From the IMG/VR virus record IMGVR_UViG_3300045049_000339, positions 1 through 64,000 of that record: 64,000 bases of DNA. The stretch is one strand, 5' to 3'. Both the position numbers and the translations under genes were made by a program. The stretch is from a virus. The first letter of the stretch is position 1. Each line of letters opens with the position of its first letter. Positions 30,352 to 62,665 of the stretch are shown piece after piece. The notes under the pieces are model-generated. The model saw nothing but the letters and a program-made list of their open reading frames with translations. It was not told the DNA's origin and did no database searches.

Positions 30352-30532
30352 GGGCCTGGCTGGTCGAGTCCCCTCGCGGAGGGTTCGGAAGACCTCTTGC
30401 GATTCGCTTCCGTGTTGGCGCACGGATTAGCCAAGCGAACATTCCGAGGCAAGCGGAGTGGGGGCAGACGCCTCCGGCCACGGAAGCTGTCCTGCTGCTA
30501 CAGGACAACGGGTTCGAATCCCGTCAGGTCCA
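30352..30532 (+). ncRNA. 181-nt tRNA-ended structured RNA with Ala identity (G3-U70, A73)
   Basis: GGGCCTG/CAGGTCC-A acceptor, perfect T arm acggg-TTCGAAT-cccgt, interior of at least 5 hairpins. Confidence 0.7.
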
Positions 30533-30578
30533 CTGGCTGCACCATCCGGTGCGGCTGAGGAAAAAGATAAGGAAAAGC

Positions 30579-54461: not shown

Positions 54462-54713
54462 CTGCACCCGCAGGGTGCGGAAAGCTAACAACTGAATATC
54501 AACATCAGCCGCCGTCGCAACGGTGGCATCAAGCTGAAGCTCTCGCTCAAGCTGAAGCGTCTCGGCAAGGCGTTGATCGAAGTGCGCTGTCCCATCAGGA
54601 GACGTCGGTTCGAATCCGACTCAGGGGACTACGATCCCTGGTGGTGTAGTGGAAGCATTGCCTGGTTTCTCAAATCAAGGCAGCGCCCACCGTGCAACGT
54701 CAGACCGCAGAAT
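54462..54713 (+). ncRNA. YrlA-like permuted tRNA-mimic RNA with hexamer-repeat 5' extension
   Basis: T arm (54604-54620), closed acceptor hairpin (54621-54641), D arm, all enclosed by atcagg/cctggt, gcgctgtc/ggcagcgc and ggcgttg/caacgtc. Confidence 0.75.
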
Positions 54714-57181: not shown

Positions 57182-57531
57182 AACCGACCATTGGCCGGGT
57201 CGTGCACTACCGCAGTCACGGCAGTGCGGACGGCACGTACAAGCCGGAGTGCCGCGCGGCCATCATCACGGCCGTCAAGGGCCACCACGAAGAGCACGAC
57301 CGCCGCATCTGGGTCGTCGACCTCACCGTGTTCAACCCCGAGGGGTTCTTCCTCAAGGACAACGCGCGCCAGGACGAGGGGCACGAGACGCCGGGAGATC
57401 CGGACTGCGAGTACGACGGGCGCCACGACGAGCAGCCGTTCCGGTACTGCGCCTGCGGCTGGCGTGAGGCCGCCATGCACGGAGGGACTTGGCACTGGGT
57501 TGAACGCGAACCCGAAACCGGAGACGAGTAG
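57178..57531 (+). CDS. hypothetical phage protein
   Basis: MKPTIGRVVHY...RAAIITAV...LTVFNP.G...GTWHW pattern. Confidence 0.7.
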   Translation: MKPTIGRVVHYRSHGSADGTYKPECRAAIITAVKGHHEEHDRRIWVVDLTVFNPEGFFLKDNARQDEGHETPGDPDCEYDGRHDEQPFRYCACGWREAAMHGGTWHWVEREPETGDE

Positions 57532-57983
57532 TGCTAACCCTAGTCCTTTCAGACTGGAGTAGTCGCCCTTGTAGTACGGCTCCAAGTGCCACACCAAGGC
57601 GGCCTCGCGGGCGCGTCAAGATCAAAGGCAAGGAGATGACCGCAGCACGTGCAGCCTGGGTCAGCAAGATTGGACCTGTGCCGCCAGGGCTGTGTGTATG
57701 TCATCGGTGCGACAATCCGTCGTGTTGGGAGATCACGCATCTCTTCCTTGGTACAAATGCGGAGAACCTCGCCGATATGGCGCAAAAAGGCCGTAGTACC
57801 TGGGGCGTGAAAAACAACACCACAAAACTCACGCCACGGCAGGTCAACGAGATCCGCGCTGCGCTGCGTAGTGGGGTCGCTCAGCGAGACCTTGCCACTG
57901 TTTACGGTGTTTGCAAGTCGACCATCGGCTACATCGGTCGCGGTGAGACGTGGCAGAAGCTACCCGAGGATGAGGAGCCATGA
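57531..57983 (+). CDS. HNH endonuclease
   Basis: VCHRCDNPSC....HLFLGTNAENLADM..KGR plus C-terminal HTH; start uncertain. Confidence 0.8.
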   Translation: MLTLVLSDWSSRPCSTAPSATPRRPRGRVKIKGKEMTAARAAWVSKIGPVPPGLCVCHRCDNPSCWEITHLFLGTNAENLADMAQKGRSTWGVKNNTTKLTPRQVNEIRAALRSGVAQRDLATVYGVCKSTIGYIGRGETWQKLPEDEEP

Positions 57984-58209: not shown

Positions 58210-58632
58210 ATGAGCATTGCCAAGGCCATATCCGCTTTCCTGCACCGAGCCAAGGACGACGCGGCAGCCACCGAGGCTGAGCTGAAGAACGTCCTGAAGG
58301 CGATCGAGCCCGAGGTCACCGCGCTCAAGAACGCCGTGGTCGACGAGATCAAGGATGAGCTGCCCGCCGTCGTCAAGGACGTCGAGGACGCCGTCAAGGG
58401 TGTCATCGCCTCGCACAGCCCGGCCTTCACCGAGGCGTTGACCACCCTGCACGCCCGGTTCGACGCCCTCGACGCCAAGCTCGCCGACCTCAAGGCGGCC
58501 AACGCCGCCGCGACCGCTGCGGCGACTCCTCCGTACGCGGCCAAGCGTGCGGCGAAGAAGACGACGGCTGCCCCGGCGGCCACGAACGCGCAGGTCAGCA
58601 CGGATGCTCCGGCCACGGAGAAGTCCTCGTAG
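58210..58632 (+). CDS. hypothetical helical protein with Ala/Lys tail
   Basis: RBS GGAG, codon bias. Confidence 0.7.
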   Translation: MSIAKAISAFLHRAKDDAAATEAELKNVLKAIEPEVTALKNAVVDEIKDELPAVVKDVEDAVKGVIASHSPAFTEALTTLHARFDALDAKLADLKAANAAATAAATPPYAAKRAAKKTTAAPAATNAQVSTDAPATEKSS

Positions 58633-58639
58633 TAATTGC

Positions 58640-58668
58640 TTGCGCACCGCCGTCGGTGCGCGTAGTGT
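58640..58668 (+). promoter_or_regulatory. promoter of the Y-RNA/TROVE operon, with palindromic spacer
   Basis: TTGCGC-N17-TAGTGT; gcgcaccg-ccgt-cggtgcgc. Confidence 0.6.
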
Positions 58669-58670
58669 TC

Positions 58671-58832
58671 TGGGTGTCGGAGGAACCGGGGTAAGGAACA
58701 CGGTTACTTCATTTGACTGGATATCAAAAGGTTGTGGGTTCGAGTCCCACCGGCTCCACTTGTGGGGCTGTAGCTCAATCGGTAGAGAAAACGTGCCCGA
58801 GTTCACTTTGATATCGGTTCCCTCGACACCCA
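58671..58832 (+). ncRNA. Y-RNA-like unit 1 (permuted cloverleaf, loop CTGGATA)
   Basis: terminal stem, GGGGTA, CGGTTACTTC, anticodon arm, T arm, closed acceptor, D arm, TTTGATATC. Confidence 0.85.
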
Positions 58833-58839
58833 CAGACTT

Positions 58840-58995
58840 CCTGTCAGGGGTACAGGCAACGGCTACTTCGCTTCGAAATGCGGGTATCTGTGCAAACAGA
58901 GTGCGGGTTCGAATCCCGTCCGGCTCTTCGCTGAGTCGGTAGACGAATTGGCAAAGTCACCTACGTATCCGATGCCGACTTAGACATCTGACAGG
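58840..58995 (+). ncRNA. Y-RNA-like unit 2 (class II permuted cloverleaf, loop TTCGAAAT)
   Basis: cctgtcag/ctgacagg, GGGGTA, CGGCTACTTC, variable arm tctgt-gcaa-acaga, T arm, acceptor hairpin, D arm. Confidence 0.85.
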
Positions 58996-59007
58996 GCTAA
59001 CTTCATA

Positions 59008-59149
59008 TCTGTCCGGGGTACAGGCTGCGGTTACTTCACCTGTTAAGTGAGAGGTCGCAGGTTCGAATCCTGTCGTGGGGTGATAAGCCCCATGTAGCTC
59101 AGTTTGGGAGAGCGCTAACGTTCCCGCTGCCGCTTCGATATCGGACAGA
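59008..59149 (+). ncRNA. Y-RNA-like unit 3 (permuted tRNA-Asn-like, loop CTGTTAA)
   Basis: tctgtccg/cggacaga, GGGGTA, CGGTTACTTC, ttcac-CTGTTAA-gtgag, T arm, cgtgggg/ccccatg, gctc/gagc D arm. Confidence 0.88.
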
Positions 59150-59164
59150 ACACACAAACTTCAT

Positions 59165-59305
59165 AGCTGCCTGGGGTAAAGACAACGGTTACTTCCATGC
59201 GGAGGAGGTAGCGCAGGTTCGAATCCTGCCGGGGGCCTACGGGCTCCTGTCGTCTAGCGGCCCAGGACGCCTACGTTTCCGTTATCGCTTTGATATCAGG
59301 CAGCT
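59165..59305 (+). ncRNA. Y-RNA-like unit 4 (permuted cloverleaf, loop ATGCGGA)
   Basis: agctgcctg/caggcagct, same conserved boxes, Glu-type D arm tcgtctagcggcccaggac. Confidence 0.85.
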
Positions 59306-59306
59306 T

Positions 59307-59400
59307 GCAGAACCCATCACCGGGGTACTGCTCACGGTTACTTCACCCTTCAAAGATGAAAAAACACCGTGAGCGCTCTGAAATCGGTGGTGGGTTCTGC
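59307..59400 (+). ncRNA. Y-RNA-like unit 5 (minimal, single stem-loop CTTCAAA)
   Basis: gcagaacccatcaccg/cggtggtgggttctgc, GGGGTA, CGGTTACTTC, CTGAAATC; no T, D or acceptor arm. Confidence 0.8.
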
Positions 59401-59443
59401 TTAATGGCAAGCCCAGTGCCATCAGGAAAAGGAGGAACAGACG

Positions 59444-61126
59444 ATGGCCAAGTTTAACCAGAAGACCCGTACCTGGGAGAACCAGGGAGGTTCGGCCTTT
59501 CCCGCCGCAGGAACGAAGCGGCAGACCACCACGACCACGAACCACACCGGCCGTGCCGTGTGGAACCTGGACGACAAGACCAACCTGTTCTTCCGCGCCA
59601 CGTCCGCCTTCGCCGGTCAGGACACGTACTACGAGAAAGGCGCCAAGCGCGACGCCGAGGCCATCGCCTTGGTCCGAAAGCTCGCTATCGGCGACTGGGA
59701 CTGGACGGCGAAGTTCCTCGTCTGGCTGCGCGCCGAGGGCAACATGCGCACCGCGCCGGTCATGCTGGCTGTCGAGGCAGTTCGTGCACGCCTGGAGAAG
59801 AAGCTGCACCCGGCTGCCGGTGAGATGTCTCACCGTGCGCTCATCGCGGCTGTTCTCCAGCGCGCGGATGAGCCGGGCGAGATGCTCGCCTACTACGAGA
59901 ACGTCGTCGGCCGCACCATGCCGAAGGCGATCAAGCGTGGTATCGGTGACGCGGCCAAGCGCATGTACAACGAGCGCAACTTCCTGCGGTACGACAGTTC
60001 GTCCAAGGCCATCCGTTTCGGCGGCGTCGCCGAGATGGCTCAGATGCCGAAGACGCACGGCTGGCAGTCCGACCTGATCACCTACGCCATTGGTGAGCAG
60101 CACCACCGTGAGCAGGACATCCCTGACACGTTGGCGGCACTTCGTGCACGCAATGAGCTGAACAAGATGGACGCCAGCGACCGTCACGTTTTCGCGAAGA
60201 GCGCACTGGGCGGCCACATCATCAACCGCACCAAGCTGGACCTGGCCATGGCCGGGCAGTGGGAGTGGTTCATGAGTTGGCTCGGTGATGCGAAGGGTGC
60301 CAAGGCCATCACGACGAAGGAGAAGTGGACGTTCGCCGCCCAGCGCATGGGCATCATGGCGGTCGTCCGCAACCTCCGGAACTTCGACGAGGCCGGTCTC
60401 AAGACGGGCGACAGCATCGTCACCGAGATCAGTGGTCGGCTCACGAACGAGGAGCAGATCGCGAAGTCCCGCATGTTCCCGTTCCGGTTCTTCACGGCGC
60501 ACTTGCAGCTCAAGTCCGTCACGTGGGCGGCCGGTCTGGAGGTGGCGCTTCAGCACTCGCTCCAGAACCTTCCGGAGCTGCCGGGCCGGACGCTGATCCT
60601 CGTCGACACCTCGGGGTCGATGCAGCAGAAGCTCTCGGCCAAGTCCGAGATGTCCTACGCCCAGGCCGCCGCACTGTTCGGCTGTGCCCTGAAGATCAAG
60701 AACCCGGACGGGGTCAACCTGTGGGGGTTCGCCGACGGGCAGTTCGAGGCGCAGGCCACCACGGGTCACAGCGTTCTGCGCTGTGCCGAGGAGTTCTGCC
60801 GCCAGAACGGCCTGGTCGGTCACGGAACGCAGATGGAGGCGGCCGTCCGTGCCACGTACGCGGGGCACGACCGAGTCATCATCATCTCCGACATGCAGGC
60901 GTTCCCGACCGGCGGTTACAGCCGGTACGGGTACAGCTACATGACCGGTGACGTCGCTGGGGCTGTTCCGGCGCACATCCCGGTATACGGTTTCAACCTG
61001 GCCAGCGGCTCCACCACACCGCTGGGCAAGGGCAACCGGCACAGCCTTGGTGGCCTCTCGGATGTGACGTTCAAGCTGATCCCTCAGCTTGAGAAGGTCG
61101 GCCGGGGTTCGTGGCCCTGGGAGTAA
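59444..61126 (+). CDS. rsr: Ro60/TROVE domain ribonucleoprotein with C-terminal vWA domain
   Basis: QDTYYE, LRAEGNMRTAP, QRADEPGEMLAYY, PKAIKRGI.DA, MAVVRNLRNFDEAG, KSRMFPFRF, TLILVDTSGSM, IIISDMQ; RBS AGGAGG. Confidence 0.95.
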   Translation: MAKFNQKTRTWENQGGSAFPAAGTKRQTTTTTNHTGRAVWNLDDKTNLFFRATSAFAGQDTYYEKGAKRDAEAIALVRKLAIGDWDWTAKFLVWLRAEGNMRTAPVMLAVEAVRARLEKKLHPAAGEMSHRALIAAVLQRADEPGEMLAYYENVVGRTMPKAIKRGIGDAAKRMYNERNFLRYDSSSKAIRFGGVAEMAQMPKTHGWQSDLITYAIGEQHHREQDIPDTLAALRARNELNKMDASDRHVFAKSALGGHIINRTKLDLAMAGQWEWFMSWLGDAKGAKAITTKEKWTFAAQRMGIMAVVRNLRNFDEAGLKTGDSIVTEISGRLTNEEQIAKSRMFPFRFFTAHLQLKSVTWAAGLEVALQHSLQNLPELPGRTLILVDTSGSMQQKLSAKSEMSYAQAAALFGCALKIKNPDGVNLWGFADGQFEAQATTGHSVLRCAEEFCRQNGLVGHGTQMEAAVRATYAGHDRVIIISDMQAFPTGGYSRYGYSYMTGDVAGAVPAHIPVYGFNLASGSTTPLGKGNRHSLGGLSDVTFKLIPQLEKVGRGSWPWE

Positions 61127-61140
61127 TCCCAGAAACACGA

Positions 61141-61176
61141 AAAGAGCCCCCGCCTCGAAAGAGGCGGGGGCTCTTT
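61141..61176. terminator. bidirectional terminator
   Basis: aaagagcccccgcctc-gaaa-gaggcgggggctcttt between convergent operons. Confidence 0.88.
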
Positions 61177-61185
61177 GTGCACGAA

Positions 61186-62043
61186 TTACTTGGCTGCGTC
61201 CAGCGCGTGACCCATGGCCTGGAGAATGGCTGGGACCAGGACCGGAGTGAGCTGCGCGGCGATGGCGGCCACCTGCGCGTCGGTCAGCTTCGGCGCGGCG
61301 ACGGCGCCGACGGCCACCTTGATGGCGTCCACCTCCGTCTTCAGCGCCGCCAGCGCGGCAGCGCTCGCCTTGGCGTCGTTGGCGATGTTCTGGACGGTCT
61401 GGTGCACGTCCGGCGAGTCGCCCGGACCCTTGTAGGCCCAGACATCAAGTGGAGTAGGCAAGTCAGTTCCTCCAGAAGAGTTGGAATTCGGGTACTGACC
61501 GAAGTCAGCCGTCTCGGAGTAGTCGACGTCGGCGTTGCCTCCGAAGAGGGTGTTCGCCTCCTGGTGAATGGTGGCGTGGGAATCCCACACGCCGCCGCTC
61601 CATGCGACGGTCTGCCACAGGTACTTGTACCCGGCGGCAGCGGCTCCGGCAATGACGTGCAGGCCGCCATACACGCCGACGTGGCCCTGTCCGAGGACGT
61701 TGGCGGCGCCAGCGAAATACTGCTCCACGCTGGCCCAGTCGGTGTCGGTGTCGACAGCGAAATGGATGACAGCGGTGGCGGGAAGACCGACTGCGGCGCG
61801 CTGTTCGCTGGCCGTACGGGCGTCCGCCTGACCGGCCGCGTAACCGGCCAGGGCGCGTGTCGTGGTGGTCTCCCACACGCCGACGATGGCGAGCCCGGCG
61901 GCGATGTACTCCGCGACGAGAGCGTGCGTCAGGTTCTTGCTGGGGTCCTCGGAGTAGTACCCGGCCGCCCAGTGCGCACCGGCCGCCTTGGCTTCAGCGG
62001 CCGTGGGCTTGGTCCAGGCGAAGTCAATTCCCATCACCGGCAT
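61186..62043 (-). CDS. endolysin, DUF1906/GH25-like glycoside hydrolase
   Basis: GIDFAW...YYS..PSKNLT...VWET...IHFAVDTD...GVYGG...WQTVAWSGG...DVD. Confidence 0.85.
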   Translation of the reverse strand: MPVMGIDFAWTKPTAAEAKAAGAHWAAGYYSEDPSKNLTHALVAEYIAAGLAIVGVWETTTTRALAGYAAGQADARTASEQRAAVGLPATAVIHFAVDTDTDWASVEQYFAGAANVLGQGHVGVYGGLHVIAGAAAAGYKYLWQTVAWSGGVWDSHATIHQEANTLFGGNADVDYSETADFGQYPNSNSSGGTDLPTPLDVWAYKGPGDSPDVHQTVQNIANDAKASAAALAALKTEVDAIKVAVGAVAAPKLTDAQVAAIAAQLTPVLVPAILQAMGHALDAAK

Positions 62044-62209: not shown

Positions 62210-62665
62210 TCAGGTACCTGCGTCAGAGATGAGCTTTCGGACGTACTTCGACGCCTCGAAATCAGAGGCGGAGGCGACATGCACACCACCTGGACCTCGA
62301 TGATGGGCGACGCAGAGTACCATGAGATTAGCTGGGCTCTCGACCCAGGCTCCCACTTTATCCTGGCTGGAGATGCCAGGGTAGTCCACTTCGAGCCATG
62401 CAAGGTCGACGCCGTTCTGAAGGCTGAACTCGACGTGGGCGTGGTGAAGCTCCAGGGGTTTGTCAAGGGAGCACTCAGAGAAATCGCCACGGTGCTTCCC
62501 AATGGCGCACTGCCACTTCTCTGGGTCCTTCTTCCACTCGCGGTGCAAATGGGAAAAATCAGCGTAGTGCGGATCGTCTTCGCGTGCTGGGTGTGGTGGG
62601 TAGTGCACGTCGTAGTGACTCGTGTGCGCCTGAACGTGAGCTGCAACAATCTTGTCGTCTGTCAT
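62210..62665 (-). CDS. His-rich HNH-like protein
   Basis: C.I...LELHHAHVEFS...ESPANLMVLCVAHHRG..GVH. Confidence 0.65.
   Translation of the reverse strand: MTDDKIVAAHVQAHTSHYDVHYPPHPAREDDPHYADFSHLHREWKKDPEKWQCAIGKHRGDFSECSLDKPLELHHAHVEFSLQNGVDLAWLEVDYPGISSQDKVGAWVESPANLMVLCVAHHRGPGGVHVASASDFEASKYVRKLISDAGT

What the first reader, a model, noticed from the sequence alone, without database searches (positions are those of the whole stretch)
58640..61176. Phage Ro60/TROVE operon headed by an array of five Y-RNA-like units
Seen: a promoter, five tandem units (58671-58832, 58840-58995, 59008-59149, 59165-59305, 59307-59400), rsr and a terminator. Each unit has a different but complementary terminal stem, which is direct covariation. 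All share internal boxes GGGGTA-N7-CGG(T/C)TACTTC on the 5' side and (T/C)CG...T(T/A/C)GA(T/C/A)ATC on the 3' side. The spacers after units 1-3 carry ACTTC. Units 1-4 enclose tRNA arms in permuted order with the acceptor closed by a loop. Established: Ro60/Rsr binds Y RNAs encoded beside it, and YrlA RNAs mimic tRNA. Unusual here: five diversified copies in a phage, a box motif unlike the GNCGAAN(0-1)G I know for YrlA, and a constant scaffold with variable payload. Inference: a modular, RNA-programmed RNP in which one protein displays interchangeable tRNA mimics.
Basis: partly seen in the sequence, partly recalled or inferred. Interest (0 to 1): 0.95.

Follow-up and report, generated by a model that had tools for sequence, protein, structure and literature searches.

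The report
Phage Ro60 gene with five Y RNAs
An uncultured actinobacterial phage carries a Ro60 (Rsr) RNA-binding protein gene preceded by five small Y RNA genes, four of them tRNA look-alikes; this is real, but it is the usual layout of Ro60 loci in actinomycetes and their phages, with only the protein-binding motif being an unusual variant.

Summary
Five tandem units (58671-59400) share one scaffold, found exactly five times where 0.05 is expected. They precede a TROVE/vWA Ro60 gene (59444-61126) that ends at a strong hairpin.

Units 1-4 are YrlA-type Y RNAs: a Ro-binding stem and internal loop, YUAY, a hairpin, a T arm, a loop-closed 7-bp acceptor stem and a D arm. Unit 5 has the scaffold only.

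The claimed novelty mostly falls away:
- A covariance model built from these units finds 2-4 units beside Ro60 in 12 other actinophages.
- It also finds 186 units directly upstream of rsr in 80 chromosomal actinomycete loci, up to five per locus.
- The permuted tRNA order and the UUAC box are published YrlA features (Chen 2014).
- GGGGUA lies exactly where relatives carry CGGUGCG or the canonical CGAAGCG.

What remains of interest:
- The scaffold is lineage-specific and uniform within each phage.
- Payload types are shared across phages. Unit 1 resembles tRNA-Ala, with G3:U70 and A73. Unit 4 resembles tRNA-Glu.
- The hairpin is shaped like an anticodon arm.
- The spacer motif ACAACUUCA is conserved and fits an RNase E site.
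- Rfam misses the whole branch, and GenBank phage records annotate some units as tRNAs.

The scan has noted similar Ro60 arrays on other DNA. No expression or binding data exist.

The parts
58640..58668 (+). Predicted promoter: TTGCGC, 17 nt, TAGTGT
   Evidence: Read from the sequence. The -10 TAGTGT is conserved in L008 just before its first unit. The E. coli-consensus scan does not call it.
58671..58832 (+). Unit 1, a YrlA-type Y RNA. It has a 17-bp terminal stem, GGGGUA at 58688, helix 2 at 58696-58703/58797-58804 and UUAC. A hairpin with the 7-nt loop CUGGAUA follows. The T arm is 58734-58750, the acceptor stem 58751-58757/58764-58770 and the D arm 58773-58788. The acceptor has G1-C72, G2-C71, G3:U70 and A73.
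   Evidence: R1 106.8 bits. Coordinates. Acceptor. The nearest real tRNAs in the reference set are the three tRNA-Ala. The Rfam tRNA model (31.2 bits) and ARAGORN (tRNA-SeC) hit its 5' part, with non-standard pairs.
58833..58839 (+). Spacer 1, with ACUUC starting at 58836
58840..58995 (+). Unit 2, a YrlA-type Y RNA. It has an 8-bp terminal stem, a longer insert with two hairpins before the T arm, a T arm at 58903-58919 and an acceptor stem at 58920-58926/58933-58939. Its D arm (58942-58958) is degenerate.
   Evidence: R1 114.5 bits.. It has no clear counterpart in L008.
58996..59007 (+). Spacer 2, GCUAACUUCAUA
   Evidence: The same motif occurs in spacers of L008, L009 and many chromosomal arrays.
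59008..59149 (+). Unit 3, a YrlA-type Y RNA. Its hairpin has 5 bp and the loop CUGUUAA, followed by the 5-nt AGGUC. The T arm is 59057-59073, the acceptor stem 59074-59080/59088-59094 and the D arm 59097-59113.
   Evidence: R1 139.2 bits. Rfam YrlA 35.2 bits. z-score -2.55. Payload is 77% identical to L009 unit 1 and L010 unit 2. After de-permutation ARAGORN calls it tRNA-Asn(GUU).
59150..59164 (+). Spacer 3, ACACACAAACUUCAU
59165..59305 (+). Unit 4, a YrlA-type Y RNA with a tRNA-Glu-like D arm (59252-59268) and a 4-nt variable loop. The T arm is 59213-59229 and the acceptor stem 59230-59236/59243-59249.
   Evidence: R1 127.2 bits. z-score -3.08. The same D-arm type recurs in L009, L008 and at least 10 chromosomal loci. 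The best reference tRNA is Glu, by a narrow margin.
59307..59400 (+). Unit 5, a short Y RNA with the scaffold only. It has a 16-bp terminal stem, GGGGUA, an 8-bp helix 2 at 59330-59337/59367-59374 and UUACUUC, then an A-rich loop. It has no T, acceptor or D arms.
   Evidence: R1 34.6 bits, E about 4e-7. z-score -6.57. Short units of the same kind are found in L008, L010, Quantum, BRock and many Streptomyces loci.
59431..59435 (+). Ribosome-binding site GGAGG, 8 nt before the ATG
59444..61126 (+). rsr, a Ro60-like protein of 560 aa with a TROVE region and a vWA domain carrying a DxSxS metal site
   Evidence: D388, S390 and S392 are invariant among four relatives. Identity is 61-63% to L008 and 39-45% to actinomycete Rsr.
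61141..61176 (.). A 16-bp G+C-rich hairpin between convergent genes, read as a two-way terminator
   Evidence: An endolysin-like gene lies on the - strand at 61186-62043.

Best explanation
This is a phage copy of the actinobacterial rsr locus.

One promoter most likely drives a single transcript that carries five Y RNAs followed by the Ro60 (Rsr) mRNA. That step is inferred.

The precursor is probably cut in the single-stranded spacers at the conserved ACAA|CUUC motif, by a host RNase E-type enzyme. That step is also inferred.

Each released RNA folds into a terminal stem plus an asymmetric internal loop (5' GGGGUA, 3' UUGAUAUC) and a second covarying helix. This scaffold is the predicted binding site for the phage's own Ro60 ring. 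Conservation and covariation of the scaffold are shown here. Binding is inferred from D. radiodurans, Salmonella, M. smegmatis and Thermus phage phiLo.

In units 1-4 the scaffold carries a complete tRNA-shaped module in permuted order:
- an anticodon-arm-like hairpin
- a variable loop
- a T arm
- a 7-bp acceptor stem closed by a loop
- a D arm

The tertiary pair 15:48 covaries. As in other Y RNAs, this module would recruit tRNA-recognising factors or PNPase to Ro60. Infected cells would then hold several Ro60 particles that differ only in their tRNA-like head. They would most likely act in decay or quality control of structured RNA, such as tRNA or rRNA.

Unit 5 is a Ro60-binding RNA without an effector head. 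It is comparable to YrlB, but with no T arm.
For: Scaffold: five exact copies against 0.05 expected.

Model R1:
- All five units are found, at 107-139 bits for units 1-4 and 34.6 bits for unit 5.
- It finds 2-4 units next to Ro60 in GiJojo, Rabbitrun, Quantum, BRock, Alone3, VanLee, Atuin, JustBecause, Frankenweenie, L008, L009 and L010. L149 has four units by eye.
- It finds 186 units in 80 chromosomal rsr loci. All are on the rsr strand and within about 750 nt upstream.

Structure:
- 95.4% of cells are paired against 65.1% in shuffles and about 40% when the partner columns are slid. Every acceptor, D-arm and terminal-stem pair varies with double changes.
- The Levitt pair 15:48 is G:C in 74, A:U in 47 and other in 13 of 134 units.
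- 128 of 162 acceptor stems have 7 bp.

The protein is a Ro60.

Published work:
- Y RNAs lie beside rsr in 254 bacteria and 22 phages. YUAY begins the V region. M. smegmatis YrlA is cut by RNase P and gains CCA (PMC4201824).
- Phage phiLo Ro60 binds two upstream Yrl RNAs and host PNPase (PMC12135203).

Processing:
- The spacer motif is conserved, with exact ACTTC in 23 of 69 spacers and close variants in others.
- It fits the mycobacterial RNase E site RN|CNU (PMC10641625).
Against: - There is no transcript, processing or binding datum for this uncultured phage.
- The canonical GNCGAAN0-1G motif is absent from the window's units.
- Rfam YrlA scores are far below its threshold.
- The promoter does not meet the consensus scan.
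- Folding energies of units 1 and 2 are not exceptional (z -1.3 and -1.0).
- The effector of any YrlA tRNA-like domain is still unknown in the literature.
- The phage encodes no CCA-adding enzyme or RtcB of its own.
Confidence: 0.8

Rival explanations
1. The units are tRNA genes. They could be ordinary or degenerate genes, as GenBank annotators of related phages have called them. Or they could be circularly permuted tRNA genes that mature into decoding tRNAs, as in Cyanidioschyzon.
For: - ARAGORN and the Rfam tRNA model hit the 5' part of unit 1 (31.2 bits against a cut-off of 29).
- ARAGORN calls similar stretches tRNAs in L008 and in chromosomal loci.
- After de-permutation in silico, all four long units are called cloverleaf tRNAs.
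- The hairpin has anticodon-arm geometry in 66 units.
Against: - The unit 1 tRNA hit needs several non-standard acceptor pairs, and these are not kept in L008.
- The order is permuted and the acceptor stem is closed.
- A helix of about 20 bp with conserved boxes is inserted between the D arm and the hairpin.
- The 'anticodon' triplets drift between the closest relatives: GGA to GAU, GUU to UUG, GCG to GCA.
- The units always sit beside rsr.
Confidence: 0.04
2. The array is mainly a cis-acting structured leader of the rsr mRNA. Repeated Ro60 binding sites would let the protein control its own translation or stability, rather than give rise to free-standing RNAs.
For: - There is no terminator between the units and rsr.
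- Units abut rsr in nearly all loci.
- A hairpin lies between unit 5 and the ribosome-binding site.
Against: - In Salmonella, M. smegmatis, D. radiodurans and phage phiLo the adjacent RNAs are discrete, Ro-bound species.
- Conserved single-stranded spacer motifs suggest cleavage.
- In Atuin the units lie downstream of Ro60.
- The hairpin before the ribosome-binding site is not conserved in sequence in L008.
Confidence: 0.08
3. The tRNA-shaped heads are decoys. They would soak up host tRNA-directed nucleases, modification enzymes or synthetases during infection as a counter-defence. Ro60 would serve only to stabilise them.
For: - In several actinophages Ro60 and its units lie inside tRNA gene clusters (GiJojo, BRock, Alone3, Atuin).
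- The hairpins are anticodon-arm-like.
- JustBecause has an RNA ligase gene next to Ro60.
Against: - The same arrays sit in chromosomal rsr loci of free-living actinomycetes, so the design is not phage-specific.
- No defence gene or target is identified here.
Confidence: 0.08

Closest known systems
YrlA and YrlB Y RNAs with Rsr of Salmonella Typhimurium and Mycobacterium smegmatis (Chen et al. 2014, PMC4201824; structure in 10.1101/312249; Rfam RF02553)
   Same: - They are encoded beside rsr on the same strand.
- A Ro-binding stem is formed by the 5' and 3' ends.
- YUAY is present.
- The order is T arm, loop-closed acceptor stem, D arm.
- The 15:48 pair covaries.
- The acceptor stem has 7 bp, as in M. 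smegmatis.
- A second, shorter Y RNA lies in the same locus.
   Different: - There are five RNAs instead of two.
- The 5' motif is GGGGUA instead of GNCGAAN0-1G.
- The hairpin that Chen et al. call the V arm has anticodon-arm geometry here: 5 bp, a 7-nt loop, then a 4-5-nt variable loop.
- Scores are below the Rfam threshold.
- The short unit has no T arm.
Thermus phage phiLo Ro60 with Yrl1 and Yrl2 (PMC12135203)
   Same: - A phage Ro60 gene is preceded by tandem Y-like RNA genes.
- phiLo Ro60 is the best solved-structure match to this protein (9KOP, 2.5e-22).
- It was shown to bind its RNAs and host PNPase.
   Different: - phiLo has two RNAs with a CGAA motif.
- No tRNA-like module was reported for them in the passages I read.
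Chromosomal rsr loci of actinomycetes (Streptosporangiales, Streptomyces, Kitasatospora) found here
   Same: - The scaffold architecture, payload types (Glu-like, CUGUUAA-loop type, GUGU D-arm type), short units and spacer motif are the same.
- Arrays hold 1-5 units directly upstream of rsr.
   Different: - Their 5' box is almost invariant, CGGUGCG(C/A)A.
- Their 3' box is GAUCUC.
- The window and L008 carry GG(G/U)GUA and GA(U/A)AUC.
Ro60 loci of Streptomyces, Gordonia and Arthrobacter phages (GiJojo, BRock, Alone3, Quantum, VanLee, Rabbitrun, Atuin, JustBecause, Frankenweenie)
   Same: - Each has 2-4 R1-positive units next to a gene annotated 'Ro-like RNA binding protein'.
- An Ala-like acceptor unit occurs in BRock, Alone3 and GiJojo.
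   Different: - They have fewer units.
- Their boxes are CGAUGCG or CGAAGCG.
- The units are unannotated, or are annotated as tRNAs or small CDSs.
Circularly permuted tRNA genes of Cyanidioschyzon merolae, and the dimeric-tRNA origin model for YrlA (as discussed in 10.1101/312249)
   Same: - The 3' half of the tRNA lies before the 5' half, with the acceptor stem initially closed by a loop.
- The 5' part of each unit still reads like a whole tRNA to ARAGORN.
   Different: - Nothing indicates maturation to a decoding tRNA.
- A conserved protein-binding helix is inserted.

Membership tests
YrlA-type bacterial Y RNA (Chen et al. 2014) | Encoded within 4 kb of a Ro60 orthologue, on the same strand | tested here: met
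   The units end 44-773 nt upstream of the rsr ATG, on the same strand.
YrlA-type bacterial Y RNA (Chen et al. 2014) | tRNA-like core with a T arm, an acceptor-like stem-loop and a D arm in that order, and tRNA tertiary pairs | tested here: met
   Met for units 1-4. The 15:48 pair covaries. Unit 5 lacks the core.
YrlA-type bacterial Y RNA (Chen et al. 2014) | Conserved YUAY at the start of the V region | tested here: met
   UUAC is present in units 1, 3, 4 and 5, and CUAC in unit 2.
YrlA-type bacterial Y RNA (Chen et al. 2014) | GNCGAAN0-1G motif near the 5' end | tested here: not met
   All five units have GGGGUA at that alignment position. L010 and Atuin have CGAAGCG, and bacteria have CGGUGCG.
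YrlA-type bacterial Y RNA (Chen et al. 2014) | Bound by Rsr in vivo | not testable with these tools
   No data exist for this uncultured phage.
Rfam RF02553 (YrlA) | Score at or above the gathering threshold of 69 bits | tested here: not met
   The units score 35.2, 28.1, 20.4 and 16.7 bits. Chromosomal actinomycete units score 39-50 bits. No phage locus reaches the threshold.
Ro60 / Rsr (TROVE plus vWA) | TROVE domain | tested here: met
   PF05731 at 42.6 bits against a cut-off of 23. PHROG 850 at 8.3e-43 across residues 17-550.
Ro60 / Rsr (TROVE plus vWA) | C-terminal vWA domain with a DxSxS metal site | tested here: met
   D388, S390 and S392 are invariant in alignment A4. The region aligns with the phiLo and Xenopus Ro60 structures. 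Pfam VWA_2 alone is below its cut-off (20.2 against 27).
tRNA (RF00005) | Continuous cloverleaf with the 5' and 3' ends paired in an open acceptor stem | tested here: not met
   The order is permuted and the acceptor stem is closed by a loop. The 31.2-bit hit on unit 1 has non-standard pairs. A cloverleaf is called only after de-permutation in silico.
YrlB-type short Y RNA | A second Rsr-associated RNA with the Ro-binding motif but no full tRNA-like domain. M. smegmatis and Salmonella YrlB keep a T arm. | tested here: inconclusive
   Unit 5 has the scaffold and no tRNA-like domain. It also has no T arm.
Permuted tmRNA (RF04321) | Score at or above 47 bits, with a tag reading frame | tested here: not met
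   Only the T arm and acceptor of unit 1 match, at 24.2 bits. ARAGORN finds no tmRNA.

The most novel reading that the evidence does not exclude
The long units are complete split-tRNA mimics, anticodon arm included, each patterned on a particular tRNA type.

[quoted passage not shown] Unit 1 has G1-C72, G2-C71, G3:U70 and A73. This set is kept in the window, L008, BRock, Alone3 and GiJojo while neighbouring pairs covary.

The phage Ro60 would then display aminoacylated tRNA look-alikes.

The phage-specific scaffold variant (GGGGUA / GAUAUC) would keep the phage particle separate from the host's own Rsr and Y RNAs, which carry GGUGCG / GAUCUC.
Probability: 0.1. Interest if true: 0.8.

Novelty: new member of a known kind. 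Interest (0 to 1): 0.4.

Why it matters
As a single locus it adds little. It is a clear phage example of the Ro60/Y RNA system, at the upper end of the usual copy number.

Its value is comparative.
- The covariance model built here shows that tandem arrays of YrlA-type RNAs are the standard form of rsr loci in actinomycetes and their phages.
- Rfam's YrlA model misses this whole branch at its threshold.
- Deposited phage genomes label some of these RNAs as tRNAs or small proteins.
- In phages the Ro-binding scaffold is uniform within a genome and differs between genomes, while the tRNA-like heads fall into types shared across genomes.

This gives a natural swap experiment for two open questions: what Ro60 recognises in bacterial Y RNAs, and what the tRNA-like domain recruits.

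Tried and rejected
- Megablast of the locus against deposited phages found no match. The phage is only distantly related to known ones; its primase is under 30% identical.
- An exact scaffold pattern scan of IMG/VR gave 25 hits. Apart from the close relative L008/L028 they look like chance, being single copies.
It gave one useful extra locus, L149. There the matching unit has C3-G70, which weakens the case that G3:U70 is essential.
- I tested whether scaffolds evolve in concert within genomes in chromosomal loci. They do not, because the scaffold there is near-invariant everywhere. The effect is seen only among phages.
- Naming tRNA types by nearest real tRNA gave a clear answer only for unit 1 (Ala) and a marginal one for unit 4 (Glu). 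The reference set of 83 mostly phage tRNAs is small.
- I considered a Ro-binding-like element between the last unit and the ribosome-binding site. L008 has the two boxes in reverse order around a small hairpin, but the window does not, so I dropped the idea.
- The supplementary tables of Chen 2014, which hold copy numbers per locus, and two Wolin-lab reviews were not available. I could not check how many multi-copy loci are already listed.
I then took coordinates from the stored alignment instead.


Full report
**What is there**

The window belongs to a 107.7-kb IMG/VR virus record judged 99% complete. It is G+C-rich, carries eight tRNA genes at 49.5-54.9 kb, and is only distantly related to deposited actinophages.

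Between a small upstream ORF ending at 58632 and an ATG at 59444 lie five tandem units. The pattern GGGGTA-N7-CGGYTACTTC occurs exactly five times, all on the + strand. About 0.05 matches are expected by chance, and there are none elsewhere in the genome.

Each unit is closed by its own complementary terminal stem of 8-17 bp. Each has a 3' box CTYNGANATC.

The ORF at 59444-61126 is a Ro60/Rsr protein:
- It has a TROVE domain.
- It matches PHROG 850 'RNA-binding protein' at 8e-43 over nearly its full length.
- Its best solved relative is the Thermus phage phiLo Ro60.
- It has a DxSxS vWA metal site that is invariant among relatives.

A 16-bp G+C-rich hairpin at 61141-61176 separates it from a convergent endolysin-like gene.

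The promoter (TTGCGC, 17 nt, TAGTGT) is plausible for an actinobacterial host. It is mirrored in the closest relative. The consensus scan does not call it.

**Structure of the units**

I aligned 12 long units from the window and three related IMG/VR phages (L008, L009 and L010, whose Ro60 is 37-63% identical). RNAalifold gave six helices:
- a terminal stem
- a second helix formed by N7-CGG and CCG-N7
- a two-pair AC/GU step
- a T arm
- a 7-bp acceptor stem closed by a loop
- a D arm

A covariance model from this alignment (R1) recovers units 1-4 at 107-139 bits and unit 5 at 34.6 bits.

Across 29 phage units:
- 95.4% of pair cells are standard pairs, against 65% in shuffles and about 40% in slid controls.
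- 25 of 32 pairs show double changes.
- That alignment is fitted to the model, so the counts lean towards it. The independent MAFFT/RNAalifold result agrees.

The tertiary 15:48 pair also covaries: G:C in 74, A:U in 47 and other in 13 of 134 units. Units 1 and 2 are A:U and units 3 and 4 are G:C.

Folding energies alone are unremarkable for units 1 and 2 and significant for units 3-5.

**Comparison with published work**

- Chen et al. 2014 (PMC4201824) describe YrlA RNAs beside rsr in 254 bacteria and 22 phages, 355 RNAs in all. They have T, AS (acceptor-like) and D stem-loops, an optional 'V' stem-loop, a conserved YUAY at the start of the V region, and a 5' GNCGAAN0-1G motif. M. smegmatis YrlA, which has a 7-bp acceptor stem, is cut by RNase P and receives CCA. 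A shorter YrlB accompanies it.
- Wang et al. (10.1101/312249) call YrlA a circularly permuted tRNA mimic and discuss an origin from dimeric tRNA transcripts.
- Thermus phage phiLo has two Yrl RNAs upstream of its Ro60. Both bind the protein, and with host PNPase they form ternary complexes (PMC12135203).

**How unusual is five?**

It is not qualitatively unusual.

Counts of units next to Ro60 in other phages:

| Locus | Units |
|---|---|
| L008 | 4 |
| L149 | 4 |
| Atuin (downstream of Ro60) | 3-4 |
| L009 | 3 |
| L010 | 3 |
| Quantum | 3 |
| BRock | 3 |
| Alone3 | 2-3 |
| GiJojo | 2 |
| VanLee | 2 |
| Rabbitrun | 2 |
| JustBecause | 2 |
| Frankenweenie | 2 |

In 80 chromosomal actinomycete rsr loci, R1 finds 186 units at E<=1e-3. 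All are on the rsr strand and within about 750 nt upstream. There are five in Planomonospora venezuelensis (L058) and four in at least six other loci.

None of these reach Rfam's YrlA threshold. That includes the chromosomal ones, although YrlA is their best family match at 39-50 bits.

**The box motif**

In the model alignment, GGGGUA occupies the position of three other motifs:
- CGGUGCG(C/A)A, present in 140 or more of 150 chromosomal units
- CGAUGCG, in the BRock-type phages
- CGAAGCG, the canonical GNCGAAG, in L010 and Atuin

The first G's of the box pair with the UC of the 3' box. G:U alternates with A-U at one of these pairs.

The 3' box changes in step with the 5' box: GAUCUC goes with GGUGCG, and GAUAUC goes with GGGGUA. 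A further phage, L149, has a third pair of boxes (AGAUCCG / UUGUUGCC) in all four of its units.

Among phages, scaffold identity is higher within a genome than between genomes for the same payload type. Window units are 56-77% identical to each other in the scaffold. Window unit 3 against L009 unit 1 is 55% in the scaffold and 77% in the payload.

This fits co-evolution of the scaffold with the cognate Ro60. The sample is small, and chromosomal loci show no such effect because their scaffold hardly varies.

**The payloads**

The hairpin after UUAC:
- It has 5 bp and a 7-nt loop in 66 of 179 units, and 4 of 5 pairs in a further 35.
- It mostly starts at the UUC of the box.
- The loop starts with CU in 43 of the 66 and ends with AA or GA in 53.
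- A tail of 4-5 nt follows, such as AGGUC.

That is the geometry of an anticodon arm followed by a class I variable loop, not of a variable arm.

De-permuted in silico, all four long units are called cloverleaf tRNAs by ARAGORN.

Payload types recur across genomes:
- Unit 4 has the tRNA-Glu-type D arm and a 4-nt variable loop, as do L009 unit 2 and at least ten chromosomal units.
- Unit 3 belongs to a common type with loop CUGUUAA.
- Unit 1 has G1-C72, G2-C71, G3:U70 and A73. Its nearest real tRNAs are the three tRNA-Ala in the reference set. The same acceptor set is kept in L008, BRock, Alone3 and GiJojo while pairs 4:69 to 7:66 change.

Two cautions apply. L149 has a clearly related unit with C3-G70. 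The 'anticodon' triplets are not conserved even between the window and L008. The modules therefore mimic tRNA shape, and partly tRNA identity, but do not look like decoders.

**Spacers**

ACUUC lies in all three spacers between the long units. The extended motif (C)ACAACUUCA(U/G)A recurs in spacers of L008, L009 and many chromosomal arrays. Exact ACTTC is present in 23 of 69 spacers and near variants in others. It fits the RN|CNU preference of mycobacterial RNase E for single-stranded RNA (PMC10641625). That this is a processing site is an inference.

**Mechanism**

Shown here:
- a conserved, covarying scaffold
- tRNA-shaped modules
- strict linkage to rsr

Inferred:
- The array is co-transcribed with rsr.
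- It is cut at the spacers.
- The scaffold binds the phage Ro60.
- The heads are recognised by tRNA-binding factors or PNPase, as in published systems.
- The 7-bp acceptor stems are cut by RNase P and extended with CCA by host enzymes. The phage has no CCA-adding enzyme or RtcB of its own.

Rivals:
- True or permuted tRNA genes are unlikely.
- A purely cis-acting leader cannot be excluded as a secondary role.
- A decoy function in counter-defence also cannot be excluded as a secondary role.

**Verdict**

The feature is real and well supported. It is a new member of a known kind (Ro60 with YrlA-type Y RNAs) carrying a lineage-specific Ro-binding box.

Earlier notes of this scan report similar Ro60-plus-array loci on other DNA. 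Those notes are unchecked by me, and I did not use them as evidence.

Noticed in passing
window 54488-54700: An orphan permuted tRNA-like element lies about 4.8 kb upstream of rsr. It has a T arm, a loop-closed acceptor stem and a D-arm-like stretch (R1 24 bits over model positions 50-105). The spacer-type motif ACAACTGAATA precedes it. It lacks the GGGGTA/TACTTC scaffold. Another first-stage note covers this stretch.
   Followed up: partly
L001 2269-2343; L047 2774-2847; L048 2596-2667; L051 2634-2724; L002 1921-2278: Deposited phage genomes annotate Y RNA units as other features. They are called tRNAs in GiJojo (Arg cct), Alone3 (Ser gct), VanLee (Arg tct) and Frankenweenie (Pro tgg). In Rabbitrun, small hypothetical CDSs 93 and 94 overlie them. 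ARAGORN makes the same calls on L008 and on chromosomal loci.
   Followed up: partly
L050 1717-4554 (Streptomyces phage JustBecause): An RNA ligase gene sits directly between two Y units and the Ro60 gene. This recalls the Salmonella rsr-yrlBA-rtcBA RNA repair operon.
   Followed up: no
L011 2626-4801: The Ro60 gene of this 101-kb IMG/VR phage (46% identical) is split over two reading frames. No Y units are seen in the 1.2 kb upstream.
   Followed up: no
L149 150-660 (- strand): Another roughly 105-kb IMG/VR phage has four units and a Ro60 gene, with a third scaffold variant (5' AGAUCCG, 3' UUGUUGCC). A terminator-like hairpin lies between the last unit and rsr.
   Followed up: partly
L049 4630-5214 (Arthrobacter phage Atuin): The Y units lie downstream of Ro60, interleaved with true tRNA genes, rather than upstream.
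   Followed up: no
window 59401-59443: A 6-bp hairpin (AUGGCA / UGCCAU) lies between unit 5 and the ribosome-binding site. L008 has a different small hairpin there, flanked by the two scaffold boxes in reverse order.
   Followed up: partly
window 30508-30539: A T-arm-like match (R1 and Rfam YrlA, weak) lies inside a stretch that another first-stage note describes as an alanine-acceptor RNA. I did not examine it.
   Followed up: no
window 57531-57983 and 62210-62665: HNH endonuclease-like ORFs flank the Ro60 cassette on both sides (PHROG hits). This could bear on its mobility.
   Followed up: no
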